A DNA stretch of 64,000 bases from Acidobacteriota bacterium (GCA_045862895.1 BTUO01000001.1:998890-1062889), one strand, 5' to 3'. Shown: positions 34,823 to 64,000, counted from the first letter of the stretch. The notes: a model not told the origin generated them from the letters alone. A program made the numbers and translations.

Positions 34823-34839
34823 GGCGATCTCCCCTCGGC

Positions 34840-39053: not shown

Positions 39054-39252
39054 GATGAGCTCCTCCGCGAGCGGGCGGACGGCGTGCGTTGTCGGTCGCT
39101 CCCCGTGGGGTGCGATCCCTGGTCCTCGATGGGTGGCGCGGGTGGCGCCGGTCGTCGTCTTGCGAGTCAGGCTCGTCCAGAACATGAGACACCTCGTCGA
39201 ACACCGCAGGCATGCACCACCATGGTGCAGCCCTACAGGCGCGACGTGGCGC

Positions 39253-39624: not shown

Positions 39625-39713
39625 CTCGTCGAGACGATACGAGCCGGTCAACCGGCCAGGCCATACCCGAAAAGGTGGGTGTCGCTGGACTACGCGGGTG
39701 GCTCCCGGCACGG

Positions 39714-40370: not shown

Positions 40371-40381
40371 CATGGCGCGCC

Positions 40382-40807: not shown

Positions 40808-40887
40808 AAACATCCAGCGCGTCCGTGGGCCGCGCGCGAGGTGATGCCTCGCGGTCTGGCCAGCAGCCGTCCCACCGATGGGCGACG

Positions 40888-41592: not shown

Positions 41593-41641
41593 TCTCATTT
41601 CGACTTCTCCTTGTCTGGCTTTGGTCTACGGTCGGTTGCGG

Positions 41642-45453: not shown

Positions 45454-45482
45454 GCCCTACGAGGGCGCGGCGACGCTCCGTC

Positions 45483-45905: not shown

Positions 45906-45940
45906 GCCGGCGCAGAGTCTGAGCCCGGGGGCGCCGCTTG

Positions 45941-49208: not shown

Positions 49209-49273
49209 CACGCGACGATACTCCCCTGGCGAAGACCGTCCGCCGCAGGACTGCCTGAGGCAGGGCAGGCGAG

Positions 49274-50048
49274 CGCCGCGCCAGCCAAAGACCGCTGTCA
49301 CGCCGCTCGCCCCTCGCTCCAGGGTGCCCCCAACCGGTCTGCGCGCGAGCCCCTCGTCTCCTCCGGGGCGTCGTGCTCGCCCAGCCAGTCACCCTGGAGC
49401 GGCCCGTGCCTCTTCGTCCTCGAATCTCCACCGACGTCTAGAGCGCGAAGTGCGGGCTCGTCATCCCTCTCCTTCCGTCGCGGTCCCCGTCCAACGTCCC
49501 GGAAATCGTCCCCGAGGTGCGCCCGGCCGCAAGGCCAAGCCTGCGGCGCGCCGACTGACGTCAAGCGGCGCGGCCTTGCCGTCCGGGCTTCGTTCACCCC
49601 GGGCTCCCACCGGTCCGTGTTGGACGGAAACCACAACCAAAGGAGAAAGCAGATGACCAGCCAGACCGCAATCACCCTCTACGGCAACGTCGGCGGAGAC
49701 CCGGAGACCCGCACCATCCCCGGCAAGCAGGTCACGAAGCAGTTCTACGACCCGATCATCGACGACATGGTCGAGCGCGAGTTCACCACCCCCGAACGCG
49801 AGGTCCGGACCTTCTCGATCGCCGTCAGCAAGAAGGACGCCGAGGGCAACGACGTCACCCGCTGGATCCGCTGCGATGACTGGAACCGCCTCTCCCGCCT
49901 GGTCGGCAAGGGCGACCGTGTGAAGGTCAAGGGTCACTTCCGCGAGCGCACCTACCAGAAGGACGGCGAGACGAAGACCGTGCGCGACTTCGTCGTCGAG
50001 GACCTCAAGATCGAGCGGCACAAGATCCGGCAGCAGGCGGAGTAGGCG
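49274..50048 (+). repeat. direct repeat copy 2 (~780 bp; structured leader + ssb-like gene)
   Basis: See copy 1. The ssb-like proteins differ at two residues (N3S and R to Q near the C-terminus). Confidence 0.85.
49653..50045 (+). CDS. SSB-like OB-fold protein, copy 2
   Basis: RBS AAAGGAGAAAG, then ATG at 49653. About 98% identical in amino acids to copy 1. Confidence 0.65.
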   Translation: MTSQTAITLYGNVGGDPETRTIPGKQVTKQFYDPIIDDMVEREFTTPEREVRTFSIAVSKKDAEGNDVTRWIRCDDWNRLSRLVGKGDRVKVKGHFRERTYQKDGETKTVRDFVVEDLKIERHKIRQQAE

Positions 50049-50113: not shown

Positions 50114-53100
50114 CTACCTGATTGCGGTCTTGGTGGCTCCACCGTGCTCGGTGGCGCGAGGTCGACAGCGCACTTTGACTGCCCCCTTGGTGAAGGCATC
50201 GTCGGTAGCCTTGCTGGACCACACAAAGGCCTCACCGGGCCGTAGGTGGGCCATCTTCTCCGGCGTCAGACCGCCGAGGGCCGCGTTGGCCTTCTGGATG
50301 TGCTTCAGCCACGCCGGCGAGTTGAACTTGTGGAGAATGATCTGGGTCGAGAGCTCGATGAGCTGCACTGGGACGGAAGGTGGGTCCTGGCTCGCGACCA
50401 TGATGCTCGTGCCCTTATGCCGCATCTCGCGGACGACCTCGACGAGGCCGGCAACGAGGTCGGGGCTCTCAATGTACTTATGCGCTTCGTCGAACACGAC
50501 GAGCTTGTTGAACTTCCGCCCTTCGAAGGTGACCTCGGCGAAAAGCTGGAGCAGCACGACGAAGAGCCCGAGGGCTTGGTCCTTCTCCATGAACTCGTCG
50601 CGAAGGTCGACGATGACTAAGCGGCCCGGCCTGATCACCTCGCCGAGGTGCGTGTTGTCGTCGATGAACTCCTCGGCGAGCTCGAGGCGTCCGTGCGCGA
50701 GCTCCTTGATGTGCTCGGGCATGCGCGAGTCGTCGATGCCCTTCCTGAGCCCCGCGAGCGTCAGGTCGTCGCGCAGCTGCTTCATGATGCGGTTGAGCTG
50801 CCGGATGTACGTCGCCTGGTTGCCGACGGCACCCATCAGGAAGCGCCAGTGGCTAGCCTGGAGCTCCGCGGCGGCGAACTGCAGGGGTCGGATCTCGATC
50901 GCCGGATACTCGGCGCGGCGCTCCTCGAGCTTGTCGGCGGGCACGAGCAGCAGAACATCTTCGAGCGCACGAGGCTCAGCCCCGTACCTCTCTCGAAGCG
51001 TGGCGACCTGAGCCGCGTCGCTGTTCGGGGCCACCATCGAGGTGAACTCCGGCGCGTAGTCCATAGTCGGGCTGTAGTGGAAGATGACAGTCGCGAGCGG
51101 CTGGGGAAGCCGGTTGATGCCGTCGATGGGCAACGACGCCATCTCCGCCACCGTGCCCAGCGTGTAGCTCTTGCCTCCTCCCTGGACCCCGAAGAGGCTG
51201 ATCGTGTGGGTTTGGTTGAGGTCGAGCGCGACGGTTCGGCCGGCGACCTCTCCAAGGATGCCGTACTGCGGCGAAGCCCCGGCGACACCGAGCATGATGT
51301 CGTAGGCGGGGCCATCTCCAGCCGTCCGGGCGGCCTCGCGGTGCGCGCCGAAGCCCTCCTCGTCGGTCGGAGGCGCGGACACGGGCTTGCTCGGCACCAG
51401 GTCGGCGGTTGCCGCCGGAACGAGCGGCTCCGAGGGCGTGCCGGGGCGCGGCGACGCAGGCGTCACCGAATCAGGCAAGAGCTCGCCGTCGCGGCCGGGC
51501 GTAGATGAAGTCGGCGACGGGTTCTCTGCCCGAGCTCTATCGACCTCCCCTTCCTTGGGCGCCAGCGCCTCGTCGCGCCCGCGGGGCGACACAAGCTCGT
51601 CCCAGGACACCGTGCGCTCGCGGCTGCCTCCGAGAAACGCCGCGGCCTCGAGAGTCGGAATGCTCGGAGCGCGGTGACGACGACGGGTAAGCTCCGCTTC
51701 GCCGCGTTCTGCTGGCGGTGTCTCTGACTGGGCATCTTCGACGCCCGCAGCCATCTCCTCTGGCGTTGGTACGGCCGCGTCAACGAGCTCGCGGATCAGG
51801 CTCACACCCACCCGATGAAATTCGACACCGTTTTCGTGCTCGATCTCGGTTCCGTCTTTCTCGAAATCAAAGACGATGGCACTTCGCGTGAAAACGAGGC
51901 GATACCCATCTTCGAGCGAGCGCAATAGGAAGCGCGCCTCTTCGGCAGCGCGCCCGTCCATGACTCCGTAGCGCACGCCGCGGTCGAGGTAGAACTCCAG
52001 CAGCGCGACGAGCTCCCGCGTCTTGATGAGGCGGTCCGCTCGATCGACCGGACCTCGAAGCGGATCGAAGTGCGTGGAAAGGACTTCCTGACTCTGCGCG
52101 ATTTGGATCGTGATCCGATCCTTCAGCGCGGTGTAGGCGGCCAGGTCGCCGACGGCGGTGTAGCACTTCACCTCGACTAGGCGGCAGGTGATAGTGCGCT
52201 CAGCGGCGTTGAGGTCGAAGAGGCCCAAGTCTGTCCGCTTGAAGCTGACGTCGTTCCCAAGCTCGTCGGCGATCTGCTTCAGCGACCGGTAGAGCTCGAG
52301 GTGAGCGTCCAGCGGGACCGCGATCTGGCTCTGGAACGCCCCTTGGTGCTCCAGGTACATGCGCGACAGCGCGAGGCCCAGCGCTTCCGCGCGTTGCGAC
52401 GGCGCCGAGATGAGCTTGAGCGCGAGCCGGCCTGAAAGCGAACGAAGCTGGTCGAGCACGGCAACTGCGTGTTGGCCGTCTGCCTGGAGGCCATAGGCCT
52501 CCAGGACCGGAACCAGCATCGCCTCAAGCTCTGCGACCGAGCGAGACGTGATCGTTAGGCGATGCCCGAGTGATGCGCCGACGTCGGGGGAGTGGTCGAT
52601 GAGGTAATCGGGGCGGTCCCGTCGGCCACCGTGATCGAAAAACTCGATTCCCATGTTGCGGTCAAGGGTGAGCACCCAGTCGCTCACCTCGTGGACCTGG
52701 TACAGCAGCGCGCGGTCCGTGGCGTCGAGGGCGAGGGCGATGACCGGCCGCATGTCGATTCCCGCCTGACCCGTGGCCACTGCGGACGTTGCATTCGAGA
52801 TCATCGCCGGGAGCGTCGACAGCAGATCGGTCAGCTCCTCGCTGCCAGCGAGCGGTAACGCGATGCCGTGGCGCGGCGTGCGCCGCCAGGCGATCGTCGC
52901 GTCGTCCTCCTGGTAGTCGACGTGGTAGTCCTGCAGGAGTCCGTGGACGGGGGCCGCCGACTCACGCATCGATGCGTTGGTCGCGCCAACCTCCCCTGCG
53001 GGGAAGAGGTCGAAGAGGAACGTGAGGTGGGCGGAGAACCGGTCCGGGTTGGCGCGGAAGTCCGACGTGCTGCGAACGCCCAGCGCGAGCTTCGGCCGAA

Positions 53101-55705
53101 GGTGATCGCTACCGGGCGTTGCGAACGCGTCCGCCTCCCGGCCGCTCTGGCTTCCCGACGGTGAGAGCAGCTCGGCGAGCCCTTCGCCGACTCCTGGGGC
53201 GTCGGCATCGGGAACGAACAGCCGAACGTCGTACCGGATGTCATTGAAAACCGGCTGGCGTTGCAGCGCGAGCAACATCTCCGCAAGGACGCCGGCGCGG
53301 CCCGGATTGAACGCGTTGATGATGAGCGTGGTGATGTACGGGTGCTGGACCAGATAGCGTTGCACACGGGCAGCGAGGGTTTCACCGTCGATCGCAGCAC
53401 CGCCAATTCCCGGCTCCGGGAGACCAAATGCGGAACAAACCTCCCCGAGGAGACCACGCGGGTCCGGCTCGTGGGCAGGCGCGTAGAGGGTCCAGTGCGG
53501 TGCCAGGTTGTCGATTGGGGTCATCAGTCGCCCGCTCACAGACTGCCCGCCCGGAGTGGCGAGAACCGGCGGGTGAGCGACTGGAGCGAGCTGCTTTAGA
53601 AGCGCATCTCTCGTGGCCATCACGAACTCGGCCGGGCCCTTGCGGGCCGCCTCGAGCCACTGCGCTCCGGTCTCTGCCCACGCTGCGAACCAAAGAACAC
53701 GGAGCGGATGCGTCGGCGCCACGAGGGCGGCCTCGCGCCGACGGCCGCGATGGTCGATGACCGCGACGGTCACCGTGTCCAAAGTGAGCATGCGCCAGAG
53801 GTCTGCGAGAGCAGCCTTCCCTTCGAGGCTGTCACTCGCTTCGGCGCGCCGGAGGAGCGCCGCGATGAGGCTCTGGTACGCGCCCGCGTACGCCACCGCC
53901 AGCGGCCGGAGCGCCAGGAGATCGGCGGCCTGCGTGACGAGCTCGCTCGCGCCAGAACGGACCGCCTCGAACCATGCCGTTCGGGCTTCGAGGAAGTCGC
54001 GGCACTCATCCGCGGACGGCCATCGTGCTTCCTCGACCGTCGGCTTGTCGGGCTGCCCCATCCGAACGGCGATGCGCCAGGCGACAGGCCCGGTCGGGGC
54101 CGCCAGGATCGCCTGTTCGAGCCTCTTCAGAGCTCGAGAGACGGACACCTGGACTGTCCCATCCCGACCGAACTGCACCTCCAGCATCTCAGAGCCGGAC
54201 GCCTGGCCGTGCCGTCGCTCTGCCCAGGCAGCACTCTGAGGCGCGATGGAAGATGGATCCCGGCCGTCCACGACGGCGCTGAACTCCAGGCGGAGTCGCG
54301 CGTGCTCCAAACTGTCGTCGTTCGGCACGGCTCGCTGCGGTGGCGGGGGTGGCTCGTCAACCTCCGTAACGACGTAGAAGAGGTCGCTCTCGTTGGGCCG
54401 CGGAACGGAGGCGTCTTCGTCGTCGACAGCCCACGGCAGCGCGTGACCACTCTCGTCGATCAGGGGGATGAGCTCGCCATCCTCGGTCTGTGCGAGCACC
54501 CGAACGAAGTGCCAGCCTTCTTCCCAATCGACCTTATGAAGACTATTCAGGTCGATCGTCGCGGTGAGCCGGGAGGAGGTCCACGCCTTCCTGCTGCGAA
54601 CGAGCCCGACAGGGCCGGTCTCTTTAGAGATCACTTGCGCGACGAATTTTGTGAGGCCCTCGACCCGTGACGGGTGCGGATCAACGCGGAATCCCACGTT
54701 GAACTTGCGGAGCCCGCCCTTGCCCACGACGAGGATCTTCTCGTCGGCCTTGAGCTCCTGAAGCTTCGAGTCGGAGGGGCTGTCGCCGACCGTTGGCAGC
54801 TCCACCACGACATCGCCAATGAAGACGTGACCCTGCTCGTTGGCATTCTCCTCGAACTCCCAACGATGGAAAGCGAACCTCCAGCAAGCTCGGTCCAGAA
54901 CGATTCGGCGCGTCCACTCGCGCGGGTCCTCGACGCCCGCGTCGCTTAGGAACTCGCCAAGCTGGCCCTGCAATGACCCCTTCTTCAGCCCCAGCTCCAG
55001 CACGCGACCGCGCTCGGAGCGTCCGGACCAGGTCAGCGTGCGTACCGCGTCGCGGTTCAGTGCGATGCGGGCAGGCGCCTTGGTCGGATCGGCCAAGAGC
55101 TCGAAGTCCGGTACCAAGGCGAGCTCGAACAGCCCGGCACCTACAGCCTCCGGATCCCCGCCATTCATCTTCGCTGTCAGAAGAAAGCGCACTACTGACA
55201 AGGGCTCGGCGAAGGGCCAGGGCGTGTCGCCTTCGAGCCTGCGAAGGCCCTCGGCGACGGCACCTCGAATCGCCGCTGGTAGGTCCCCAATCAGGCGGTT
55301 GCGGAGGCGCGTGTAGACGTCACCCAACGAAACGTCCTCGAAGGTCGCGATACCGAAACTGTCCTCGGCGGCAGCCCGAACGTCGTTCGGGATGAACACG
55401 AGGAGTGGTGGTCGCTGCGCGCCATCCGGCAGCGGGTTGCGAAGCTCGACGAGCTTCGTTGAGGTAACCGTCAGCGTTGGAGGCGTCGAGCTGTGCCCGT
55501 TGCCGAGGATGACGACCTGAGCCTCGGGGACCTCGGCACGCAAGCGGCCGCATAGCCGCACCATGAGATCGCGGTCCAGATCGGTGAGGCGCATGCAGTG
55601 CCCTCGGCCGCGCAAGCGCAGGAGCTCGGCGAGGCGTGGGAAGAGCTCGACCTCGAGCTCGGCGGCCAGATCGTGAGGCTGGATCGTGCGGAGGCCCTGG
55701 CTCAT
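50114..55705 (-). CDS. giant (1863 aa) protein with C-terminal HerA/FtsK-like DUF87 ATPase (DptH/DndH-like architecture)
   Basis: The C-terminus has Walker A ISLFGVQGGGKSYTLGTVAEM and Walker B/DEAH-like LVVFDEAHKYIESPD...SIMVASQDPPSVP. The start overlaps the upstream gene's stop. Confidence 0.7.
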   Translation of the reverse strand: MSQGLRTIQPHDLAAELEVELFPRLAELLRLRGRGHCMRLTDLDRDLMVRLCGRLRAEVPEAQVVILGNGHSSTPPTLTVTSTKLVELRNPLPDGAQRPPLLVFIPNDVRAAAEDSFGIATFEDVSLGDVYTRLRNRLIGDLPAAIRGAVAEGLRRLEGDTPWPFAEPLSVVRFLLTAKMNGGDPEAVGAGLFELALVPDFELLADPTKAPARIALNRDAVRTLTWSGRSERGRVLELGLKKGSLQGQLGEFLSDAGVEDPREWTRRIVLDRACWRFAFHRWEFEENANEQGHVFIGDVVVELPTVGDSPSDSKLQELKADEKILVVGKGGLRKFNVGFRVDPHPSRVEGLTKFVAQVISKETGPVGLVRSRKAWTSSRLTATIDLNSLHKVDWEEGWHFVRVLAQTEDGELIPLIDESGHALPWAVDDEDASVPRPNESDLFYVVTEVDEPPPPPQRAVPNDDSLEHARLRLEFSAVVDGRDPSSIAPQSAAWAERRHGQASGSEMLEVQFGRDGTVQVSVSRALKRLEQAILAAPTGPVAWRIAVRMGQPDKPTVEEARWPSADECRDFLEARTAWFEAVRSGASELVTQAADLLALRPLAVAYAGAYQSLIAALLRRAEASDSLEGKAALADLWRMLTLDTVTVAVIDHRGRRREAALVAPTHPLRVLWFAAWAETGAQWLEAARKGPAEFVMATRDALLKQLAPVAHPPVLATPGGQSVSGRLMTPIDNLAPHWTLYAPAHEPDPRGLLGEVCSAFGLPEPGIGGAAIDGETLAARVQRYLVQHPYITTLIINAFNPGRAGVLAEMLLALQRQPVFNDIRYDVRLFVPDADAPGVGEGLAELLSPSGSQSGREADAFATPGSDHLRPKLALGVRSTSDFRANPDRFSAHLTFLFDLFPAGEVGATNASMRESAAPVHGLLQDYHVDYQEDDATIAWRRTPRHGIALPLAGSEELTDLLSTLPAMISNATSAVATGQAGIDMRPVIALALDATDRALLYQVHEVSDWVLTLDRNMGIEFFDHGGRRDRPDYLIDHSPDVGASLGHRLTITSRSVAELEAMLVPVLEAYGLQADGQHAVAVLDQLRSLSGRLALKLISAPSQRAEALGLALSRMYLEHQGAFQSQIAVPLDAHLELYRSLKQIADELGNDVSFKRTDLGLFDLNAAERTITCRLVEVKCYTAVGDLAAYTALKDRITIQIAQSQEVLSTHFDPLRGPVDRADRLIKTRELVALLEFYLDRGVRYGVMDGRAAEEARFLLRSLEDGYRLVFTRSAIVFDFEKDGTEIEHENGVEFHRVGVSLIRELVDAAVPTPEEMAAGVEDAQSETPPAERGEAELTRRRHRAPSIPTLEAAAFLGGSRERTVSWDELVSPRGRDEALAPKEGEVDRARAENPSPTSSTPGRDGELLPDSVTPASPRPGTPSEPLVPAATADLVPSKPVSAPPTDEEGFGAHREAARTAGDGPAYDIMLGVAGASPQYGILGEVAGRTVALDLNQTHTISLFGVQGGGKSYTLGTVAEMASLPIDGINRLPQPLATVIFHYSPTMDYAPEFTSMVAPNSDAAQVATLRERYGAEPRALEDVLLLVPADKLEERRAEYPAIEIRPLQFAAAELQASHWRFLMGAVGNQATYIRQLNRIMKQLRDDLTLAGLRKGIDDSRMPEHIKELAHGRLELAEEFIDDNTHLGEVIRPGRLVIVDLRDEFMEKDQALGLFVVLLQLFAEVTFEGRKFNKLVVFDEAHKYIESPDLVAGLVEVVREMRHKGTSIMVASQDPPSVPVQLIELSTQIILHKFNSPAWLKHIQKANAALGGLTPEKMAHLRPGEAFVWSSKATDDAFTKGAVKVRCRPRATEHGGATKTAIR

Positions 55706-57387
55706 GGCATCCCCCCGTTGGTGCCATTCGGGGGCTCGATGCGATAGCGCGGCGTTACCGTCTGGGAGACGTAGGCGTCGGAGAGGTCGCGATAGAACCC
55801 GACCTCACGCAGGCGGGCTGTGAAGGCGGCCGCGTTCCCGCGCAGCGCGGCTCGGTCCTCGATGCTGGGGGCGCCAAAGCCATCTCCCCGAGGCAAGCGG
55901 TCGATGTGCAGTCCGTAGCGTTCGCGCAGCCAGGTCAGCAGTGCCTCGATCCGCATCTCGCCGGTGTAGAAGGGCCCGCTCGGCGTGTCCTGATGCAGCA
56001 CCGCGATCTGCAGCAAGACCTCGAGAAGGCGGCTGTCGAGCACGAAGCGCCGTGCAGCTCCTTTCGTCCGCCCCTGCGCGATGAGCGCTCCAGGGCGGTT
56101 CTTCATGAGCAATGAGTCGATGCACTCGGTGATGTACTGGCGATGGAACCTGCCACGTAGCGCCACGAGCATTTCGACGTAGGTGTCGAATTCCGAGAGC
56201 TTGAGGTCGAGGACCGCTTTGAGCTCCGGGTCGAGGTCGGACTCGGTGTTGCCCGCGGAGTCCTGGACGAGCGCGTAAACTCGTGCGCCGAAAAACTTCG
56301 CACGCTCGTCTTTGTGCAGCGGTTCGAGCAGCTGAAGCACCTCAGGGACGCCGAGCTCCTCGCCCTTGGGCCGATGAAGTTTGCCCGTCCTGACCATCGA
56401 CTCGCCGAACTCGTCAAGCTTCTTGAATGAGAAGTAGGCCTTCACGAACGAAGGGATGCGCCGGTAGTGCAAGTCGGCGCTCCGCACGGCCAATTGCGCC
56501 GCGGCTCTTTCGGGCTGGCCCGCGACATCGACGAACAGCCCCACGCGATACGGGCAGTCGCCGTGCGGATTGTCAGCGCTCCGCGGGTCTACTGGGCAGG
56601 CACTCGGCGCGCAGATCGGGTCCGCCCCCTTCCGCTTTACCAAGGCCGGGAGGAGCTTGAACAGGCGCAGATGGTAGAGCGCCAGGTGGAAGGCGAGCAG
56701 AACCTTTAGGTAGTCGACCATCACCGAACGTGGGATATGCCGCTCGTAGAAGAGCAAGCGCTTGATGTCCTCGGCGAGGAGGTCGGCCGCCCCGATGCAC
56801 AGCGGCGTGAAGCTGTCGCGGCCGCTGCGGGTGTCCGGTGCGTCTTCTACCTGCTCCGTGAGACGCAAGAGCGCCTGCGTCTCGACGTCGAGGACAGCCG
56901 CACCATCCGTCCTTCCCGTGACCTTGTCGTGTCCCTGGAAGAAGAACCGGTTCAGCTGCTCGATCGCAGCCTGCCCAGCGCCTTTTCGCGAGTGGTAGAG
57001 CGTCTCGTAGAGATGCTGCGCCGCCCCGTAGTCGCGCGAGTGCTTCGGGTTGCGGAAGCGGTATGTGAACCCGTGGAGCGGGCGAGGCGCGGCCACCGCC
57101 TGGTTCGATTTCCCCCGGTTCACGACGTCCATGAGGTGGGTTTCGACCCACCGCTCGAGGACTTCCCGGTACTGCGTGAAGCCCGTAAACCACTCCGGGT
57201 GCTCGAGGAACTCGTCCACGAAAGCTTCCACCGAGAGCTCGAAGCGGCGCTTGAGACGGCTCGGAAAGCCGTTGTGTGCGAGGCGGGCGAACAGCGCCGT
57301 CAGCACGCGGTCCATCTCGAGCTGTTTGAAGTCGAGGTAGGACACCTTTTTGGAGTTGAACGCGCGGTCCTTGCTCGACAAGCCCAT
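55702..57387 (-). CDS. hypothetical protein (561 aa), middle gene of putative defence operon
   Basis: Protein-like composition, translationally coupled on both sides, no recognised motif. Confidence 0.5.
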   Translation of the reverse strand: MGLSSKDRAFNSKKVSYLDFKQLEMDRVLTALFARLAHNGFPSRLKRRFELSVEAFVDEFLEHPEWFTGFTQYREVLERWVETHLMDVVNRGKSNQAVAAPRPLHGFTYRFRNPKHSRDYGAAQHLYETLYHSRKGAGQAAIEQLNRFFFQGHDKVTGRTDGAAVLDVETQALLRLTEQVEDAPDTRSGRDSFTPLCIGAADLLAEDIKRLLFYERHIPRSVMVDYLKVLLAFHLALYHLRLFKLLPALVKRKGADPICAPSACPVDPRSADNPHGDCPYRVGLFVDVAGQPERAAAQLAVRSADLHYRRIPSFVKAYFSFKKLDEFGESMVRTGKLHRPKGEELGVPEVLQLLEPLHKDERAKFFGARVYALVQDSAGNTESDLDPELKAVLDLKLSEFDTYVEMLVALRGRFHRQYITECIDSLLMKNRPGALIAQGRTKGAARRFVLDSRLLEVLLQIAVLHQDTPSGPFYTGEMRIEALLTWLRERYGLHIDRLPRGDGFGAPSIEDRAALRGNAAAFTARLREVGFYRDLSDAYVSQTVTPRYRIEPPNGTNGGMP

Positions 57388-60300
57388 CAGCGCATCTCCT
57401 CGGCCACCCCGGGAGGTGCATCCATCGCTCCGCGCGTCAGCGCCGCGGGCGCCTGGAGTGGTAAGTGGGCCATCTCGAGGCGCCCATCTTCATGGCGCTC
57501 TACACGGTAGAAGTCGTGGCCGGTAGTCGTCAGCAGCACCTCCTGGTAGGGCGCCGATCCGAGGACGTTCTTGAAGACTGCCAGACTCAGGTAGTAGCCC
57601 TGTTCCTCCTCGAGGCTCGGCCGGTAGCCGTGGTTGAGACGCTCCAGCATCTCGAACACGTCGAGATTGATGACGAGCTCCGCCTGGTTGTCCTGATCGT
57701 CGTAGCGGAGCACGAGCGCGCCCGGCATGTGCTCGACGAACCGTGCCCGGCTCGCGGCGTCGCGAACGCCGAGCTGGAAGCGGCTGACGTCGTAGAGCCG
57801 ATACGACCGGATCGTGCCGTGCTCGACCTGGCGGACCTGGAGCGCGAGGCTGCCCGAGAGGCGCGTAGGGTCGAACAGCCCCTCGCCCCGGTTGATGGCC
57901 TGCAGCACCTCGGGGAGCGCGAGCTCGGGCATGGCTTCCCGGCTCACCATCTTCAGCATTCGATCGCCTGAGCGGTACGAGAGCATCGCGCGCCAGCCGC
58001 CGTCGCGTCGCTCGAAGAACGCCCGCCTGCGCGCCATGGCGACGTAGCGCCGATGAGTTTCCGTCCGGTGGGGCGTGGGTTTGCCGGAACAGTCTCGCGG
58101 AAGATTCTCGTAGAGCGCTCGCAACACCTCGTGGTCATAGCGGCCGCGGTCGGCAAAGCCGAAGCGGCTCCTGTCTTGGGACGGGCTCACGAAATCGAGG
58201 CCGCGGTCGAGGCGTGGGTCACCCGCTGCACTAACATCCACATCCCGAAGCAAAGTGAGTAGCCGGTCGACTGTCGCCGACTCCGCGCCCATCCACGCGT
58301 TGAAGTAGAAGGCAGCCGCGATCTCATCACGCCGGCCGTCCGCGTAGAGCTTGTGAATCTCGGCGCAGTCGCGGGCGGATGTGAGCATGAATGCGAGCGC
58401 AGAGCGAAGATCCCGCAGCGTGATGTGCAGCCTCCCGCGAAGGTGCGTGAGGGTGTAGAGCGTCTTTAGCCGCTCCAGCACCTGCGGCCCGGCCGTGCGA
58501 TCTTGAAACGTTTGCACGTTGTGGAGGGCATAGCAGCGCTCCTTGAGATCGCAGCTGTGGCAAGCGCCCCAGAACTTCGGATGGGTCAGGAGCAGCGTCT
58601 GACGCACGAGGATCGAGTCGACCTCCCCGCGTGGGCCGTCCCCGTTGGCCACCACGCTGCGGAGGTTCAGGTTGACCACCGCGACGCCATTGGCGCCGGC
58701 GCCGGTCAGGAGGCCCTCCTCGGCAATGCGCAGCAATGCCGGGAAGGCGGCCCGCTCCGTCTGCAGGAAGTCGACCAGCCGGCCCTCGTTGATTGCGACC
58801 AGGCGCGTCTCCTTGTCGGGCCAGGCCAACGGGTCGTCCCCCTTGAAGGGAGCGAAAAACTCGCGAAGCACCTCATCGTTGCCCCGGGTGTCTTCGTCCT
58901 GAGAGCCGTCGTAGTTCGTCAGGAAGGTCCGCTGAACGGTCCTGAAGCGTCGGCCATTCAGCAGCGCCTCGCTCGACACGAGCTGTGCCTGCTCGCCGGC
59001 CTGCACCTCAAGCTGCTGCAAGAAGGCGGTCTTGCCGTCCCCGGCGTTGCCGGTGATCAGAACGAGCTTAAACCTGCCGGCGATGACATCGGGCATCAGC
59101 CGGTCGTCAAGCAGGGTGGGCACATAGGTGCGGCGTCCGAGGTCATCGAGGCCGCGGGTGCCTGCGTTGGTCTGAGGGCTCTGGCTATACAGCGTGAGCA
59201 GGTAGTTTACGAACGGATTGGTGTTCGGCGGGATGTTGCCGCCGATCTCCGGGACGAGCAGCGAGTCTGAGCTATCGGCCGTCGGCTCTCGTCGTGCGCG
59301 CGTGACATCTTCCAGTGCCTCGAGCAGCGCCGAGGCTGAGGCAAAGCGGTCGGCGCGCTTGGGCGCGATGGCCTTCAGCACCACGCCCGTCAGCTCGGGG
59401 GCCAGGTTCGAGAGACCGGGAAGTTCGCGTGGGTCGTGCGCGTTCGTGGCCGGCGGAGGCGACATCGACTTCCAGGGATAGACACCGGTCAGCGCCTCGT
59501 AGACCGTGAGGCCCAGTGCATAAAGATCGCGGTCCACCAGCTCACTCGGCGACGGAGTCGCGGAGAGATCGAGGTCGGGCGGGAGGTACCGGCGGGAGCC
59601 GCCACCGTGCCCGTTGTCCTCGGTCCGCACGGCGACGTTGAAGTCGATGATCTTGGCTCCCCGCACCGTCCAGAGCAGGTTCGAGGGCTTGATGTCGCAG
59701 TGGTAGACGCCCTCACGGTGGAGGTGGACGAGCCCCTGTGTTACCTGCCGAAAGAGCACGAGGGCGTCTTCGGGCGCGAACCGCGCATCTCGGATGAGGT
59801 CGCCGACGTCCTCGCCGTCCACGTACTCGAACAGCAGGTACGGCGGACCGTCGCCCGGAAGCACGTTCGCGTCGATGACGCGCACGACGTGCGGATGCTC
59901 GGGCAGGTGGACGAGGGTCTTGTACTCCTTCTTGAGCCGCTCGAGGGTCGAGTGACGATCGCGAAGGATGATCTTGAGCGCCCGCGTCACGTCGCCCAGC
60001 GTGTCGACGACCTTGTAGACCACGCCGAAGGTGCCGCGTCCCAGCTTGGCCTGGACTTCGAGCTTGCCGGCGAGAAGCGTGCCCCTCGCGACGTCGGTCC
60101 AGTCGATGGCCGGCGGCTGCGTGGAAGGCGGCTGTGGGGGTGGAAGTTCGGCCGGTGGCGGCGCGACGTCGGGCTCGCTGGGGACTGAGGCGGCCAACGC
60201 TTGGTCGAGGGCCTGAAGCGCCGCGACCGAGGTGAGCCGCTGGCCCGGGTCGAAGGTACAGAGCCGCTGCAGCCAGGCGTCGAGAGGCGGCGCGATCTCG

Positions 60301-61583
60301 GCCCGGTGCGTCGACGGCTTCACCGGGAACACGCCGCCCTGATCGAAGAGCTCCGTCGGCGAGCCGAACGGCCGGTGCCCGGTGAACAGCTCGAAGAGCA
60401 CCAGACCGGCACCGAAGACGTCCGAGGAGGGGCTCGCGTTGGCCGGCTCCTTCCACGTCTCGGGAGCCGCGTAGTTCGCGTCGATCTTCTCAGCGATCTC
60501 TGCGGCGATCGTGAGGCTCCGGTCTGTCCCGGCGCGAGCGTGATCGAAGCCCGTGAGCCGGATGTGCCCGTCGCTGCCGAGCAGGATGGTGCTCGGTGAG
60601 AGGTCGCGGTGGACGACTTCGTGGGCGTGGCAGAACGCAAGCGCCTCGAGCAGCTCCCTGGCGACCCGTAGCTTCTGGTCGAGGGTCAGCGCCAGCGCGG
60701 GCTTGTCGATGTGCAGGCGCAGCGCCTGACCCGAAACGTCCTCGGTGACCAGCACGTAACGGTCTTCACTCTCGGTCGCGAAGAAGCTCTTGGCACCGGC
60801 GATGAACGGGTGCCCGGGGAGGCGGTTGAGCGCGAAGAAGGCGTTGGCGATCCGGGCCTTCTGCCGCTCGCGCTGGTCCGGGTCCGTCACGTAGGGGTCG
60901 GCTTGGTAGGCTCGCAGCAACGCCGTGCCGCCCCGCTTGCCCGCGAAAGTGTTGATGGCGCGGTACTCGGTGAAAGTGTCGCTGGCGCCGAGTCGCTCCA
61001 CCACCTCCCAATCACCAAGCACCAGGGGGCCCGAGCGAGACCTGGCGACACCGACCAGGGCGCTGCGCACCATGCCGTGCAGGCGCGAGATGTTCTTCTC
61101 GAAGCGCGCCGGGAGTCGACTCGCATTTTGGAAGAACGACGCGGCCTTCTTGAGGGTGGTGACGTTTTCGCTGTCGCGGCTGCCCTGGTCGACCAGGTGT
61201 GCGTCTGGGGCGGTCAGGAGCACCACCGCTTCGACGAACACGCCATCAAGGTCGCGGCGGCCGGGTTGGCTCTCGGTGAGAATGCCCTTCACCGTTCGCG
61301 CGTGCCCCCGCAGCTTCAGGAGTGGCGAAGTGAAGGGCTGGCGCCCCTCCGGATACCACTTGGGCCCATAGACATCGATGAGCCCGCGTGTGCCCTTGAC
61401 GTCGACAAGGTACAAGCCGTGCGGTGTCAGTACGGCGATATCCACTTCGAAGGACTCGCCGCCACGACGGATCTCGAAGTTGTGGAAGATGAGGTAGCTT
61501 CCGGGAAGTTGATCCCGAAGGTGCGCGATCGCCAGACGCTCGGCGTCGTTCACGGGTTCGCCGATAGGGACCACCGCTGCCAT
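57387..61583 (-). CDS. multidomain protein: N-terminal NERD nuclease-related domain, tandem Ser/Thr protein kinase domains, C-terminal P-loop NTPase
   Basis: NERD domain ERLAIAHLRDQLPGSYLIFHNFEIRRGGESFEVDIAVLTPHGLYLVDVKGTRG. Kinase 1 has VVHRDLSPSTILL, GFDHA and AAPE. Kinase 2 has FGVVYKVVD, ALKII, YHCDIKPSNLLW and IIDFNVAV. Walker A LVLITGNAGDGKTAFLQQL. Confidence 0.75.
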   Translation of the reverse strand: MAAVVPIGEPVNDAERLAIAHLRDQLPGSYLIFHNFEIRRGGESFEVDIAVLTPHGLYLVDVKGTRGLIDVYGPKWYPEGRQPFTSPLLKLRGHARTVKGILTESQPGRRDLDGVFVEAVVLLTAPDAHLVDQGSRDSENVTTLKKAASFFQNASRLPARFEKNISRLHGMVRSALVGVARSRSGPLVLGDWEVVERLGASDTFTEYRAINTFAGKRGGTALLRAYQADPYVTDPDQRERQKARIANAFFALNRLPGHPFIAGAKSFFATESEDRYVLVTEDVSGQALRLHIDKPALALTLDQKLRVARELLEALAFCHAHEVVHRDLSPSTILLGSDGHIRLTGFDHARAGTDRSLTIAAEIAEKIDANYAAPETWKEPANASPSSDVFGAGLVLFELFTGHRPFGSPTELFDQGGVFPVKPSTHRAEIAPPLDAWLQRLCTFDPGQRLTSVAALQALDQALAASVPSEPDVAPPPAELPPPQPPSTQPPAIDWTDVARGTLLAGKLEVQAKLGRGTFGVVYKVVDTLGDVTRALKIILRDRHSTLERLKKEYKTLVHLPEHPHVVRVIDANVLPGDGPPYLLFEYVDGEDVGDLIRDARFAPEDALVLFRQVTQGLVHLHREGVYHCDIKPSNLLWTVRGAKIIDFNVAVRTEDNGHGGGSRRYLPPDLDLSATPSPSELVDRDLYALGLTVYEALTGVYPWKSMSPPPATNAHDPRELPGLSNLAPELTGVVLKAIAPKRADRFASASALLEALEDVTRARREPTADSSDSLLVPEIGGNIPPNTNPFVNYLLTLYSQSPQTNAGTRGLDDLGRRTYVPTLLDDRLMPDVIAGRFKLVLITGNAGDGKTAFLQQLEVQAGEQAQLVSSEALLNGRRFRTVQRTFLTNYDGSQDEDTRGNDEVLREFFAPFKGDDPLAWPDKETRLVAINEGRLVDFLQTERAAFPALLRIAEEGLLTGAGANGVAVVNLNLRSVVANGDGPRGEVDSILVRQTLLLTHPKFWGACHSCDLKERCYALHNVQTFQDRTAGPQVLERLKTLYTLTHLRGRLHITLRDLRSALAFMLTSARDCAEIHKLYADGRRDEIAAAFYFNAWMGAESATVDRLLTLLRDVDVSAAGDPRLDRGLDFVSPSQDRSRFGFADRGRYDHEVLRALYENLPRDCSGKPTPHRTETHRRYVAMARRRAFFERRDGGWRAMLSYRSGDRMLKMVSREAMPELALPEVLQAINRGEGLFDPTRLSGSLALQVRQVEHGTIRSYRLYDVSRFQLGVRDAASRARFVEHMPGALVLRYDDQDNQAELVINLDVFEMLERLNHGYRPSLEEEQGYYLSLAVFKNVLGSAPYQEVLLTTTGHDFYRVERHEDGRLEMAHLPLQAPAALTRGAMDAPPGVAEEMR

Positions 61584-63010
61584 CAGGCCGCCTCCTCGAT
61601 GGCTCGCTCGACGAGTGAGACTCCCTGCCGCTCAGAACCGATCGCTCGCGAGAGCGCTTCGACCATATGGCCGACGAGAGTAACGACCTCTTCGCGCTTC
61701 TTGCCGGTCCACCACGGGATTCGCAGATCCGCCAGGAGCGAGCAGTCGAGGCTCGGTATGGAAGAACCAAAGGCTGTCCCGATTGCCGCGTAGTAGCCGG
61801 GCTCGGTCGCGAACACTGCCCAAGCGAACAATGCGTCCTCGCGCGACTTGCACCGGATTCGCACGAGGTGCTCGGATGCAGCGGATCCGTAATAGGAGGG
61901 CATCGGGAGAACGGCCCGGCCGATGATGCCGCCGAGCTGGCCACTACGAGGTAGGAGGAGGTCCCTCTCGGTGACGAGCTGTCGCTCGAGATCGGGAGTC
62001 CGGGATCTGGAAATGAGGTAGTCGCCGACTGGGTCGAGACGGAAGACCTCGGACGACGATAGAAACGGTACGCCATACGCCTTGTCTTCCACTTTGCGAC
62101 GGGCGCCGCGGTTTGGTTCGAAGACCTCATCGACGACGTCGCCCAGGCGCTGAGTGGGGCCCGAGGCCAGGCATTCGCGGGCGGCGCGGATCCCCGATGC
62201 GTGGTGGAACGCATCAAGTCGCCTCTGGAGAATCAACGACCTCGAAGTGGTCCAGAGGTCGCTGGTGGTCCGATGGCTCCAGCTCAGGCTCTTGGTCACC
62301 TTCTGAACAATCGTGGCCCGTAGCGATGCGGCTTCGGACCTGCGGACGGCGGAGATCTCGACGAGTTCATGCGCCGTCCGCTCCACATCACGGCCGAGTC
62401 GCGGCACCGGGAGGTCCGCGATGTGCTCCGGTTCGATGGACTGGATGATCGAACCGTAGGTGCCCGAGGTCACCAGCGGCACGCCGAACTTGCTGCTCAG
62501 GAAGGCGTAGACGTAGCCCGGGTTAACCTTCCTCGAGTCCGGGACCACCTTCATGACGTGCTGCGACGTCCACATGCCGTTCATATCCGGCCGCGCGTAG
62601 ACCATTCGGCCGATCGTGCCAGAGCACGAGATCAGGGTCATTCCAGGTTCGATGCGGAGGTAGGAGAGCTTCGCTGACTCAGCATCCCGCCGTCGGAGGT
62701 ACGGCAGAGTGCTGAGGTCTGCCTGGAGCATCGCGGCGCTCCCGAGGAACGGAACGCCGTGCTCGGGACCTTCGACGAATCTGCGGGAGAAGTGCGGGCC
62801 GTTGAAGATGCCACCCTCGTGACCAGCTGTCAGATCCGCCAGCCTCTCCTTCCGGCAAGTCAGCTCCTCCAACCGGATCCTGGCCTCGAGGGCACCGGAC
62901 ATGTACGGGCCGCAGTCGAGGCGTCGTCCGTCTCGGCGCATCCAGGCGCTGGGAATGGCCTTGACCTTCATGCGTCGGGCTCCGAGTGCTCGGCGCGGAC
63001 CGTGCGGCAA
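61583..63010 (-). CDS. HsdS-like specificity protein with two target-recognition-domain halves
   Basis: Repeated halves each carry GVPFL...(D/M)xLISxSG(T/R)...GxxGIIGRxV and LADL(P/R)(V/I)P-like segments typical of type I S subunits (Methylase_S). The stop overlaps the NERD-kinase start (ATGA). The N-terminal start is uncertain, possibly MKVKAIP at 62971. Confidence 0.55.
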   Translation of the reverse strand: MPHGPRRALGARRMKVKAIPSAWMRRDGRRLDCGPYMSGALEARIRLEELTCRKERLADLTAGHEGGIFNGPHFSRRFVEGPEHGVPFLGSAAMLQADLSTLPYLRRRDAESAKLSYLRIEPGMTLISCSGTIGRMVYARPDMNGMWTSQHVMKVVPDSRKVNPGYVYAFLSSKFGVPLVTSGTYGSIIQSIEPEHIADLPVPRLGRDVERTAHELVEISAVRRSEAASLRATIVQKVTKSLSWSHRTTSDLWTTSRSLILQRRLDAFHHASGIRAARECLASGPTQRLGDVVDEVFEPNRGARRKVEDKAYGVPFLSSSEVFRLDPVGDYLISRSRTPDLERQLVTERDLLLPRSGQLGGIIGRAVLPMPSYYGSAASEHLVRIRCKSREDALFAWAVFATEPGYYAAIGTAFGSSIPSLDCSLLADLRIPWWTGKKREEVVTLVGHMVEALSRAIGSERQGVSLVERAIEEAA

Positions 63011-63165
63011 GGGTCAGCGGTGGGCAGAAAGTCGCCGGCGACGGTCCTCTCCTTCCGCCGGAGCACGGGCACGGCTGGGTGTCCTTTGACGCGGCGGGCG
63101 CCGTCAGAAGAGACACCAAACCCGTCACAGATGGAGCGGCTGCAGGGCTTGAGGTCCCGCCGGCA

Positions 63166-63225
63166 CGCGACTGCCAGACGCTCGGCGTCGTTGACGGGCT
63201 CGCCGATGGCGACCACCATTGCCAT
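63166..63225 (-). pseudogene. duplicated N-terminal fragment (about 19 codons) of the NERD-kinase gene fused after HsdS-like gene 2
   Basis: MAMVVAIGEPVNDAERLAV versus MAAVVPIGEPVNDAERLAIAHL. The 63166-63260 block is about 85% identical in nucleotides to 61536-61610. The ORF then diverges into non-coding-like sequence (62968-63165). Confidence 0.45.
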
Positions 63226-63983
63226 CAGGCCGCCTCTTCGATGGCGCCCTCGACGAGCGTGCGCGCCTCGCGTTCCTTCGCCACGGCAGCGTGACGGAGC
63301 TCGGCGACCATCGCCCCTTCCTTGCCGATGCGCTTTCGGACCGGATCTCCGGGGTCGGGCACGACGACACGGCCAATCTGATGAACGTCGAGATGCGGGA
63401 TGGACGAGCCGTAGGCTCGAGCTTTGAGCTGCCGCAGCCCGAAATTGGACGTAAGGGCGACGAACACGAAGCCCGCAGTAGCTGCATCAGGACAGTTGAT
63501 CCGAATTGCATCCTCGGACACTGCGCCGCCCAGGATGTCGCCGTACGGCAAGACGGCCGTGCCGATGATCCCGGAGAGCTGGCCAGAACGAGGGATCAAG
63601 ACGGTCCTCTCCGTAACGACGTACTCCTGAACGCCCTGCTGATTCTTTGGTAGGAAGTACATCTCAGTAGGCTCACTCCACATCAGCGCTGCTGTTCCGA
63701 AGAACCGCACTCCGAAATCCGGATCGTCGAGGCGAATACGCTTGAATCGGTTCGGCTCGATGATTGAACTCGCAAGCTTGCCTACCGTCGTGGTTCCAAT
63801 AGGCGCGCTCTTCAGTTGAGCGACTACCTGATTGCCGTAGGGGCTGTGGAAGAACGCGTCGAAGCGCTCCTGGATTGTAGATGCGGGAACAGATACGCAC
63901 GAATACGGCATCGGGCTGCTCGCTGGGGTGAGCGGCTCCAAGTGCGCCAGAGTCTCCAGCTCGCGAACAGCGTCGGCAAGCAA
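63225..63983 (-). CDS. HsdS-like specificity protein 2 (single TRD half visible; 5' end may extend beyond window)
   Basis: Aligns to the C-terminal half of HsdS-like 1 (PRSGQLSGIIGTAVLP..., ...AYGSSIPHLD..., C-terminus LVEGAIEEAA versus LVERAIEEAA). The window ends 17 nt past the first Met. Confidence 0.5.
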   Translation of the reverse strand: MLADAVRELETLAHLEPLTPASSPMPYSCVSVPASTIQERFDAFFHSPYGNQVVAQLKSAPIGTTTVGKLASSIIEPNRFKRIRLDDPDFGVRFFGTAALMWSEPTEMYFLPKNQQGVQEYVVTERTVLIPRSGQLSGIIGTAVLPYGDILGGAVSEDAIRINCPDAATAGFVFVALTSNFGLRQLKARAYGSSIPHLDVHQIGRVVVPDPGDPVRKRIGKEGAMVAELRHAAVAKEREARTLVEGAIEEAA

Positions 63984-64000
63984 CTTGGAGGCGTTCGCGC

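What the first reader, a model, noticed from the sequence alone, without database searches (positions are those of the whole stretch)
61536..63260. Tandem HsdS-like cassettes with a duplicated S-C-terminus/NERD-N-terminus junction
The roughly 90 bp block spanning the last codons of an S gene plus the first 16-19 codons of the NERD-kinase gene occurs twice, at 61536-61610 and 63166-63260, at about 85% identity. At the second copy the NERD N-terminus is only a 19-codon stub followed by degenerate sequence. The two S proteins share conserved framework segments but have divergent recognition regions. This is the footprint expected from recombination-mediated cassette exchange or duplication at a fixed junction. 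It is analogous to hsdS shufflons, although here the repeats are direct rather than inverted. It suggests specificity switching or recent acquisition of a second TRD.
Basis: seen in the sequence. Interest (0 to 1): 0.6.

Follow-up and report, generated by a model that had tools for sequence, protein, structure and literature searches.

The report
Duplicated specificity gene in a MADS operon
An anti-phage MADS operon in an Acidobacteriota genome carries a second, different copy of its DNA-recognition gene, joined to the first by a small in-frame fusion of two gene fragments; this is a rearrangement scar that probably adds a second target sequence, not a switching device.

Summary
The repeat is real: 61524-61618 vs 63166-63260 is 86% identical at a constant 1642-nt offset, with a local alignment score of 132 against at most 39 for background.

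The locus is a MADS (methylation-associated defence system) operon on the minus strand: mad5(S2, cut by the window end) - 85-codon ORF - mad5(S1) - mad6 (NERD kinase) - mad7 - mad8.

The "stub" is not degenerate. It is an in-frame chimera of mad6 codons 1-~43 and the last 42 codons of the mad2 methyltransferase. This is the novel joint left by duplicating or inserting a 1642-nt unit (mad2 3' end + mad5 + mad6 5' end). Its start and stop overlap the flanking mad5 genes (TGATG, ATGA).

The two S proteins have different C-terminal recognition domains (34% identity), and each has closer relatives in other genomes. Two specificities are therefore likely.

The junction block is conserved across the family (91% and 88% to another genome's junction, 82% between the two copies here), so its identity does not show recency or a dedicated recombination site. 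There are no inverted repeats, no recombinase in the part of the window examined, and the longest exact match is 20 nt. Shufflon-like switching is not supported.

Of 137 other MADS loci scanned, 2 carry independent tandem mad5 genes, each with an analogous in-frame chimeric ORF. This is a new variant of a known system, of modest interest.

The parts
63225..64000 (-). mad5 copy S2 (upstream specificity gene). Only the C-terminal 258 codons are visible; the gene runs off the window end.
   Evidence: NCBIfam MAD5 NF047740, 171 bits, model positions 207-461; PADLOC mad5. No stop upstream within the window. Logan contig L085 extends it by 134 nt to 302 aa. C-terminal recognition domain 85% aa identical to L006, a Thiodictyon MAG.
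63151..63258 (-). Junction copy J2: last 11 codons of S2 plus the first 25 codons of a mad6 remnant.
   Evidence: 82% identical to J1 and 88% to the L005 junction. Repeat statistics.
62968..63225 (-). 85-codon chimeric ORF. Its ATG overlaps the S2 stop (TGATG) and its stop overlaps the S1 ATG (ATGA). GenBank annotates it as hypothetical protein GMU64619.1.
63097..63225 (-). mad6' remnant: codons 1-~43 of the NERD kinase. Well preserved for nt 1-75, weakly recognisable for nt 76-129.
   Evidence: Ungapped protein alignment to MAD6 residues 1-44. Nucleotide alignment. 65/75 vs 27/51 identity to L005.
62968..63094 (-). mad2' remnant: last 42 codons plus the stop of the MADS methyltransferase gene, read in its native frame.
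   Evidence: 77.5% over 129 nt to the 3' end of the gene upstream of mad5 in L005. That gene is MAD2 (NF047738, 986 bits). Colinear 79% alignment with L166 starts exactly here.
61583..62971 (-). mad5 copy S1, complete (462 aa): two recognition domains plus two long helices.
   Evidence: NF047740, 493.7 bits (cutoff 400), model positions 1-461. AlphaFold pLDDT 88, pTM 0.88. Top PDB matches are S subunits of PacII, BsaXI, EcoKI, EcoR124I and others. Identical to GenBank GMU64618.1.
61509..61616 (-). Junction copy J1: last 11 codons of S1 plus the first 25 codons of intact mad6.
57387..61583 (-). mad6: NERD domain plus two protein-kinase domains and a large C-terminal region (1398 aa).
   Evidence: NF047741, 773.6 bits (cutoff 460); Pfam NERD and Pkinase; PADLOC mad6.
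55702..57387 (-). mad7
   Evidence: NF047733, 675 bits (cutoff 410)
50114..55705 (-). mad8: 1863-aa ATP-binding protein with a HerA-like C-terminal region.
   Evidence: NF047742, 229.7 bits (cutoff 175); PADLOC mad8, weak DndH and HerA hits.

Best explanation
The region is the promoter-proximal part of a MADS (methylation-associated defence system) operon in an Acidobacteriota MAG. The specificity gene mad5 is present twice in tandem.

The arrangement is: [mad2, outside the window] - mad5(S2) - mad6'(codons 1-~43)::mad2'(last 42 codons) - mad5(S1) - mad6 - mad7 - mad8. This is what results when a 1642-nt unit (last 127 nt of mad2 + mad5 + first ~129 nt of mad6) is either duplicated in tandem or inserted from a related MADS locus by homology-assisted recombination. 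The mad6'::mad2' fusion is the novel joint.

Shown:
- The gene identities.
- The chimeric composition of the stub.
- Colinearity of mad2'-S1-mad6-mad7-mad8 with single-copy loci.
- The different C-terminal recognition domains of S1 and S2.
- Recurrence of the same architecture in two unrelated MADS loci with different breakpoints.

Inferred:
- Both S proteins are made. Every boundary in the chain S2/stub/S1/mad6/mad7/mad8 is a TGATG or ATGA overlap, so the in-frame stub keeps translation coupled through the scar.
- Each S protein pairs with the single MAD2 methyltransferase and the effector proteins. The system would then mark and police two bipartite DNA motifs instead of one, which would make phage escape by accidental methylation harder.

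The ~100-nt repeated block is simply the most conserved stretch of this part of the operon. It may serve as a homology anchor when mad5 alleles are exchanged between genomes, but it is not a switching site.
For: - System identity. NCBIfam equivalogs MAD5, MAD6, MAD7 and MAD8 all score above their curated cut-offs, and PADLOC finds mad5-8.
- S fold. pLDDT 88, and all top PDB matches are S subunits.
- Stub composition. Residues 1-44 align ungapped to MAD6 1-44. Residues 44-85 align to the MAD2 C-terminus of L005, L166 and L167.
- Colinearity. A single 7543-nt, 79% alignment of the window with L166 runs from 126 nt before the mad2 stop through mad5, mad6, mad7 and into mad8, and starts exactly at the chimeric joint.
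- Unit length. The repeat offset of 1642 equals 127 + 1386 + 129.
- Different specificities. C-terminal recognition domains of S1 and S2 are 34% identical. S2's is 85% identical to L006; S1's is 71-73% identical to L022, L043 and L027; S1 as a whole is 77-78% identical to P0236 and P0237.
- Composition. GC3 of the C-halves is atypical: 70-76% against 81-84% for mad6-8.
- Independent recurrences. L028 has MAD6(1-44, in-frame 69-codon deletion, 114-150)::MAD4 C-tail. L107 has MAD6(1-52)::MAD4(34-206). That is 2 of 137 informative loci.
- Coupling. All boundaries overlap, and no promoter-like site on either strand and no terminator-like site on the coding (minus) strand lies in 61400-64000.
- Precedent. 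MADS methylates a bipartite Type-I-like motif, TCAGNNNNTCC, in P. aeruginosa. [quoted passage not shown]
Against: - The N-terminal half of S2 and the intact mad2 lie outside the window, and I could not retrieve them. S2 integrity, and tandem duplication versus foreign insertion, are therefore unresolved.
- Expression of either S protein, methylation motifs and defence activity are untested.
- S1 and S2 are far too divergent for a simple recent in-situ duplication. A second step (allele replacement) or a foreign origin is needed.
- The mad6' remnant decays unevenly: 87% identity for nt 1-75 against 53% for nt 76-126, Fisher p = 4e-5. Neither model predicts this without an additional recombination event or some constraint.
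Confidence: 0.72

Rival explanations
1. Programmed or high-frequency specificity switching. Recombination between the two direct junction repeats (or between the S genes) would delete or swap cassettes, so that the population alternates between specificities, as in hsdS shufflons.
For: Two S genes share conserved segments in the same orientation: the junction block, a motif in the second recognition domain at 61904-61977 / 63546-63619, and the end of the N-half at 93% over 60 nt. Short-read contigs break at equivalent positions inside both S genes and share a 30-mer, so exact repeats do exist.
Against: There are no inverted repeats between the copies. No recombinase was found among the operon genes or the downstream flank examined. 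The longest exact identity between J1 and J2 is 20 nt, which from my own knowledge is below the ~25-30 nt usually needed for efficient RecA recombination. S1 is full length and the visible part of S2 is intact, and both are translationally linked rather than silent partial cassettes. A deletion between direct repeats is irreversible. The same contigs occur in 3 samples with the tandem form.
Confidence: 0.06
2. The junction block is kept similar because it is an active recombination anchor. mad5 C-halves are repeatedly replaced by homologous exchange with incoming mad5-mad6 DNA, with the downstream crossover resolving inside the first ~75 nt of mad6 or of the stub. This would refresh that part of the stub. 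It is compatible with the best explanation and adds a mechanism for the uneven decay.
For: The proximal 75 nt of the stub shows no excess decay (87% vs L005, compared with 91% for intact J1), while nt 76-126 is only 53% (intact: 86%). The same pattern appears in L028, at 87% vs 63%. In codons 1-25 the changes are mostly non-synonymous (3 synonymous and 6 non-synonymous codon changes in the window's stub, 4 and 5 in L028's), so protein-level constraint is weak. Recognition-domain mosaicism between genomes is visible: the L001 mad5 combines an S1-like N-half with an S2-like C-half. The block at -33..+75 is the most conserved nucleotide stretch around.
Against: No donor sequence was identified. 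J1 and J2 are not each other's closest relatives, so there is no sign of intralocus conversion. Numbers are small. A nucleotide-level constraint for re-initiation of translation could give the same pattern.
Confidence: 0.3
3. The 85-aa ORF is a functional small protein, for example a MAD6 N-terminal peptide that docks on MAD5 or regulates the kinase, rather than a scar.
For: The ORF is open, has an ATG, and keeps 6 of 7 family-invariant residues of the MAD6 N-terminus. Analogous ORFs are open in L028 and L107. It is called as a gene in GenBank and in Logan.
Against: The three stubs share only the MAD6 N-terminal ~25-50 residues and are fused to different partners: MAD2 tail, MAD4 tail, most of MAD4. 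Sparing of invariant residues is not significant by my own hand hypergeometric estimate, not a tool result (p about 0.4 and 0.15). The ratio of synonymous to non-synonymous changes is close to neutral. The fragment covers well under half of the NERD domain, which spans residues 12-123 in MAD6.
Confidence: 0.05
4. Assembly artefact: mis-joined or falsely duplicated S genes in a metagenome-assembled genome.
For: The source is a MAG, and short-read contigs break inside both S genes.
Against: An independent short-read contig (L085, 3 samples) spans S2 C-half, stub and the S1 start at 100% identity. The copies differ by 14-18% in the repeat and by about 66% in the recognition domains. The joint is a clean in-frame gene fusion. 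The same architecture occurs in two unrelated assemblies.
Confidence: 0.02

Closest known systems
MADS, methylation-associated defence system (Maestri et al.; preprint 10.1101/2023.03.30.534895, published Cell Host Microbe 2024 according to the reference list read)
   Same: mad5 (S subunit), mad6 (NERD kinase), mad7 and mad8 are in the canonical order, with equivalog-level scores. A mad2 methyltransferase remnant is present. Related loci show mad1-mad2-(mad3-mad4)-mad5-mad8.
   Different: There are two tandem mad5 genes separated by a mad6'::mad2' chimeric ORF. The subtype apparently lacks mad3 and mad4 between mad2 and mad5, inferred from the remnant and from L005 and L166. [quoted passage not shown] I found no description of tandem mad5 or of the chimeric joint in the searchable library.
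Type I restriction-modification systems with more than one hsdS gene serving one methyltransferase (e.g. lactococcal plasmid-borne hsdS, staphylococcal Sau1; from my own knowledge)
   Same: The S subunit has two recognition domains and two helices, and the bipartite motif of MADS is Type-I-like. An extra S gene would add a specificity without duplicating the enzyme.
   Different: The partner proteins are MAD2 and MAD6-8, not HsdM and HsdR. The extra S gene sits in tandem inside the operon and is translationally chained. Pfam Methylase_S does not score at E<=0.01.
Phase-variable hsdS invertons / shufflons (S. pneumoniae SpnD39III, Mycoplasma pulmonis; PMC4948785, PMC7672463; titles and abstracts seen)
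   Same: Several hsdS-type genes at one locus share conserved segments that can recombine.
   Different: Those loci use inverted repeats, an adjacent site-specific recombinase, and silent partial hsdS cassettes. Here the repeats are direct and diverged, no recombinase was seen, and both genes appear complete.
Recognition-domain exchange and 'domain movement' in Helicobacter pylori Type I S genes (PMC3077401; abstract seen)
   Same: Recognition domains behave as modules that move between alleles through flanking conserved sequence. MAD5 recognition domains show the same mosaic distribution across genomes.
   Different: That process replaces domains within one gene. Here a whole extra gene with flanking gene fragments was added.

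Membership tests
MADS (methylation-associated defence system) | MAD6, MAD7 and MAD8 present together (mandatory components in the authors' MacSyFinder model) | tested here: met
   NF047741 773.6 bits (cutoff 460), NF047733 675.1 (cutoff 410), NF047742 229.7 (cutoff 175). The genes are adjacent and overlapping.
MADS (methylation-associated defence system) | Specificity subunit MAD5 immediately upstream of mad6 | tested here: met
   S1 scores NF047740 493.7 bits (cutoff 400) over the full model. The S2 fragment scores 171 bits over model positions 207-461.
MADS (methylation-associated defence system) | N6-adenine methyltransferase MAD2 in the operon | tested here: inconclusive
   Only a 42-codon 3' remnant lies in the window. 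An intact mad2 is expected upstream of 64000 but could not be retrieved.
MADS (methylation-associated defence system) | Methylation-dependent protection against phages and plasmids | not testable with these tools
   Needs a methylome and infection assays.
Type I HsdS-type specificity subunit | Two globular target-recognition domains, each followed by a long conserved helix | tested here: met
   AlphaFold model pLDDT 88.3, pTM 0.88, with helices at 194-228 and 424-461. Foldseek top hits are 7vru_C, 8w0p_C, 1yf2, 3okg, 1ydx, 2y7c, 5ybb and 7bst, E 1e-11 to 1e-6, probability 1.00, over 411-484 columns.
Type I HsdS-type specificity subunit | Sequence match to Pfam Methylase_S (PF01420) | tested here: not met
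   No Pfam family at E<=0.01. PADLOC Type I specificity models do match, at 1e-15.
Type I HsdS-type specificity subunit | Encoded with hsdM and hsdR | tested here: not met
   The neighbours are mad6-8 and a mad2 remnant.
Phase-variable hsdS shufflon / inverton | Inverted repeats inside or flanking alternative hsdS cassettes | tested here: not met
   Only three weak inverted pairs (71-77%, 22-31 nt) in 57000-64000, none pairing S1 with S2. The shared segments are direct.
Phase-variable hsdS shufflon / inverton | Adjacent site-specific recombinase | tested here: not met
   The visible operon genes are mad5-8. The downstream flank examined encodes a sigma factor, an SSB-like protein and metal-resistance genes. 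The region upstream of 64000 was not seen.
Phase-variable hsdS shufflon / inverton | Silent, truncated hsdS copies lacking their own expression signals | tested here: not met
   S1 is full length with its own ATG. S2 matches the model through to its end. Both sit in a chain of overlapping ORFs.
Tandem-duplication / insertion scar | Novel joint fusing sequence from the 3' boundary of the unit (mad6 5' end) to sequence from its 5' boundary (mad2 3' end), with repeat spacing equal to unit length | tested here: met
   The stub is MAD6(1-~43)::MAD2(last 42 codons). The offset 1642 equals 127 + 1386 + 129.

The most novel reading that the evidence does not exclude
MADS operons may tolerate gene gain and loss only when the scar stays an open, in-frame 'relay' ORF that preserves the unbroken chain of overlapping stop/start codons. 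The conserved mad5-3'/mad6-5' block may act as a portable homology anchor that lets these systems stack or swap specificity genes. Four independent rearrangement joints are all in frame and end on the native ATGA overlap: the window; L028; L107 mad6'::mad4'; and L107 mad3'::mad4'. L028 also carries an in-frame 69-codon internal deletion. By my own rough estimate, the chance expectation is about (1/3)^4 to (1/3)^5.
Probability: 0.35. Interest if true: 0.5.

Novelty: new variant of a known kind. Interest (0 to 1): 0.3.

Why it matters
If both MAD5 proteins are active, one MADS enzyme set would police two DNA motifs. MADS is known to be escaped by phages that become methylated by accident (preprint). 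Doubling the motif set should lower that escape rate, and it is a cheap way for a large eight-gene system to diversify.

The scars also give a readable record of how such operons evolve. Whole specificity genes are added together with fragments of their neighbours, and every scar found so far keeps the reading frame. This points to translational coupling as a real constraint on operon architecture.

For annotation, small 'hypothetical proteins' between duplicated defence genes (here GMU64619.1) can be recognised as chimeric remnants.

None of this changes the general picture of restriction-like systems. It is an instructive but incremental case.

Tried and rejected
- Pfam on S1, S2 and the stub gave no family. 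Identity came from NCBIfam and PADLOC.
- tblastx and blastn of the 180-nt spacer against the first three related loci found nothing. The mad2 origin only appeared with more loci.
- Attempts to see S2's N-half and the intact mad2 all failed. Exact look-ups of S1 and P0235 are not on record. The MAD6, MAD7 and stub look-ups returned only short Logan contigs. A homologue search with the S1 N-half returned no same-organism fragment. An exhaustive representative search with S2 gave at best a 53% relative.
- A plasmid collection search found no related tandem.
- L031 looked like a second case because of the gap between mad5 and mad6, but it is an insertion of a transposase-like ORF into mad5.
- Weak second NERD-like hits in L025, L040, L051 and L068 (E 0.06-0.5) were dismissed as not being stubs.
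- An apparent compensated 2-nt frameshift in the stub disappears in an ungapped reading, so it is not treated as evidence.
- Recent in-situ duplication with concerted evolution was rejected, because J1 and J2 are each closer to L005 than to each other and S1 and S2 have closer relatives elsewhere.
- A test for protein-level constraint on stub codons 1-25 was not significant (and my own hand hypergeometric estimate).

Full report
**1. Observation**

All relevant genes lie on the minus strand.
- The repeat finder reports a direct repeat at 61487-61615 / 63129-63257 (129 nt, 79%). A second in-register pair lies at 61904-61977 / 63546-63619 (74%). Both have an offset of 1642 nt.
- The local alignment score is 132. 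Codon-block shuffles give 20 +/- 2.5, and the maximum over 400 other windows of the same sequence is 39.
- Identity collapses to 35% further into the S genes and to 52% beyond about 75 nt into the kinase frame.

**2. What the genes are**

Pfam recognises only the NERD and kinase domains of the 1398-aa protein. NCBIfam and PADLOC identify the whole locus as a MADS operon:
- MAD5, specificity subunit: S1, 61583-62971, 493.7 bits over the full model.
- MAD6: 57387-61583.
- MAD7: 55702-57387.
- MAD8: 50114-55705.
- A second MAD5, S2: 63225 to beyond 64000, matching model positions 207-461.

S2 has no stop upstream within the window.

An AlphaFold model of S1 (pLDDT 88, pTM 0.88) has two globular domains, each followed by a long helix. 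Its best PDB matches are all S subunits of Type I or related systems.

The proteins are identical to GenBank entries GMU64617-GMU64619 of an Acidobacteriota MAG, all annotated 'hypothetical protein', on a 1.2-Mb contig.

In P. aeruginosa, MADS methylates the bipartite motif TCAGNNNNTCC. The authors noted operons with multiple hits to one gene type (preprint 10.1101/2023.03.30.534895).

**3. Anatomy of the stub**

The 85-codon ORF (62968-63225) starts at an ATG that overlaps the S2 stop (TGATG). It ends at a stop that overlaps the S1 ATG (ATGA).
- Residues 1-44 align ungapped to MAD6 residues 1-44.
- From codon 44 onward it is the C-terminus of the MAD2 methyltransferase. The match is 77.5% over 129 nt to the 3' end of the gene preceding mad5 in L005. 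NCBIfam identifies that gene as MAD2 at 986 bits.
- A single colinear 79% alignment of 7543 nt with the single-copy locus L166 starts exactly at this joint. It runs through S1, mad6 and mad7 into mad8.

The stub is therefore mad6'(1-~129 nt)::mad2'(last 127 nt), fused in frame. The repeat offset fits: 127 + 1386 + 129 = 1642. This is the novel joint of a tandem duplication, or of an insertion of a homologous fragment, whose unit runs from inside mad2 to inside mad6.

**4. Not an artefact**

Two Logan short-read contigs, each seen in three samples, are 100% identical to the window. One of them (L085) spans S2 C-half, the stub and the first 47 nt of S1.

**5. What the repeat's identity means**

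The block from -33 to +75 around the mad6 ATG is conserved across the family.
- J1 is 91% identical to the L005 junction, and J2 is 88% identical to it.
- J1 and J2 are only 82% identical to each other.

The repeat's similarity therefore reflects conservation of the MAD5 C-terminal helix and the MAD6 N-terminus (consensus MAxVIPIGxPVNDAER...). It does not indicate recency, concerted evolution or a dedicated site. The longest exact match between the two copies is 20 nt.

**6. The two S proteins differ**

- Their C-terminal recognition domains are 34% identical.
- S2's domain is 85% identical to that of a Thiodictyon MAG (L006).
- S1's domain is 71-73% identical to those of Myxococcales, Leptolyngbya and Methylosinus loci.
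- S1 as a whole has 77-78% relatives in single-copy loci.
- A relative (L001) combines an S1-like N-half with an S2-like C-half.
- Sliding identity shows the mosaic: 93% at the end of the N-half, 30-45% through the central region and second recognition domain, and 80-90% at the junction.
- GC3 of the C-halves is lower than in the rest of the operon.

A simple recent in-situ duplication cannot explain this. Either a duplicate was later overwritten by a foreign allele, or the S2-mad6' segment came in from another MADS locus.

**7. Recurrence**

I scanned 137 other MADS loci that have at least 3.3 kb upstream of mad6. Two have tandem mad5 genes.
- L028, another Acidobacteriota MAG, is an eight-gene type. 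Its 94-codon stub is MAD6(1-44), then an in-frame 69-codon deletion, then MAD6(114-150), then the MAD4 C-terminal tail.
- L107 has a 229-codon stub, MAD6(1-52)::MAD4(34-206). NCBIfam confirms it (MAD4 1.4e-45, MAD6 2.3e-16). Its junction repeat is 94% identical over 161 nt.

The breakpoints and fusion partners differ, so these are independent events. In every case the stub is in frame and keeps the TGATG and ATGA overlaps.

L107 also has a 49-codon MAD3'(Walker A)::MAD4'(tail) ORF. It bridges mad2 and the first mad5, and is another in-frame scar, this time of a deletion.

**8. Mechanism**

Shown:
- The architecture.
- The chimeric joint.
- The different recognition domains.
- The unbroken chain of overlapping ORFs.
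- No promoter-like site on either strand and no terminator-like site on the coding strand in 61400-64000.

Inferred:
- Both S proteins are translated by coupling through the stub.
- Each S protein assembles with the single MAD2 and the MAD6-8 machinery, giving two specificities.

Switching is unlikely, for these reasons:
- There are no inverted repeats.
- No recombinase appears in what is visible.
- S1 is a complete gene and the visible part of S2 is intact.
- The repeats are short and diverged.

**9. Unexplained**

The mad6' remnant decays unevenly.
- In the window, nt 1-75 is 87% identical to L005 and nt 76-126 is 53%. Intact mad6 gives 91% and 86% (Fisher p = 4e-5).
- L028 shows the same pattern, 87% vs 63% (p = 0.002).
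- Changes in codons 1-25 are mostly non-synonymous, so protein-level constraint is weak.

One reading is that allele exchange repeatedly resolves within the first 75 nt and so refreshes it. The other is a nucleotide-level constraint for re-initiation of translation. I cannot separate the two.

**10. Verdict**

This is a real, non-artefactual rearrangement scar in a known defence system. It is a new variant (tandem mad5 with an in-frame mad6'::mad2' relay ORF), seen independently in three of 138 loci in total. It is not a shufflon. Interest is modest.

Noticed in passing
L107:1325-1477: Between the mad2 stop and the first mad5 start lies a 49-codon ORF. It is an in-frame fusion of the MAD3 N-terminus (including the Walker A motif GANGSG) to the last ~11 residues of MAD4, so mad3-mad4 were deleted and left an in-frame scar with overlapping start and stop codons. 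This suggests how six-gene MADS subtypes (mad1-2-5-6-7-8, as in L003, L005 and L166) can arise from eight-gene ones.
   Followed up: partly
L031:8390-9990: The 3' end of mad5 is interrupted by a 455-aa transposase-like ORF on the opposite strand. This MADS locus appears to be disrupted by an insertion sequence.
   Followed up: partly
window 21170-21958 and 49257-50046: A 792-nt direct repeat at 94.6% identity (99% over the last 247 nt) covers two paralogous ~275-aa ORFs with an SSB domain. The second copy ends 68 nt from the mad8 stop. The pair brackets a ~28-kb block of copper and heavy-metal resistance genes, so it may mark a mobile island next to MADS. The Logan contig L084 ends exactly in this repeat.
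   Followed up: partly
window 31535-48583: Downstream of MADS lies a metal-resistance cluster: an AcrB/CusA-type pump, a CusB-like fusion protein with a heavy-metal-binding domain, two outer-membrane efflux proteins, a multicopper oxidase, and a CopA-type P-type ATPase. An ECF-type sigma factor follows at 48624-49301.
   Followed up: partly
window 62477 and L085:1-30: The two short-read contigs that carry S1 and S2 both begin with the same 30-mer (GCTGGTGACCTCGGGCACCTACGGTTCGAT), at about S residue 165. L085 ends 47 nt into S1. This pattern suggests that part or all of the N-terminal halves of S1 and S2 share exact k-mers, so they may form a long near-identical direct repeat. The S2 N-half lies outside the window and could not be retrieved.
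   Followed up: partly
L166:204-3071: The closest single-copy relative of the S1-type operon sits next to a 955-aa protein with a Replic_Relax domain. This hints that this MADS subtype travels on a plasmid or an integrative element.
   Followed up: no
MAD5 family alignment (72 sequences): Unlike classical HsdS, the first recognition domain of MAD5 (S1 residues ~110-190) is strongly conserved across the family (0.6-0.78 column conservation). The central region and second domain are much more variable (0.3-0.5). In some loci the second half resembles the first-domain type.
   Followed up: no
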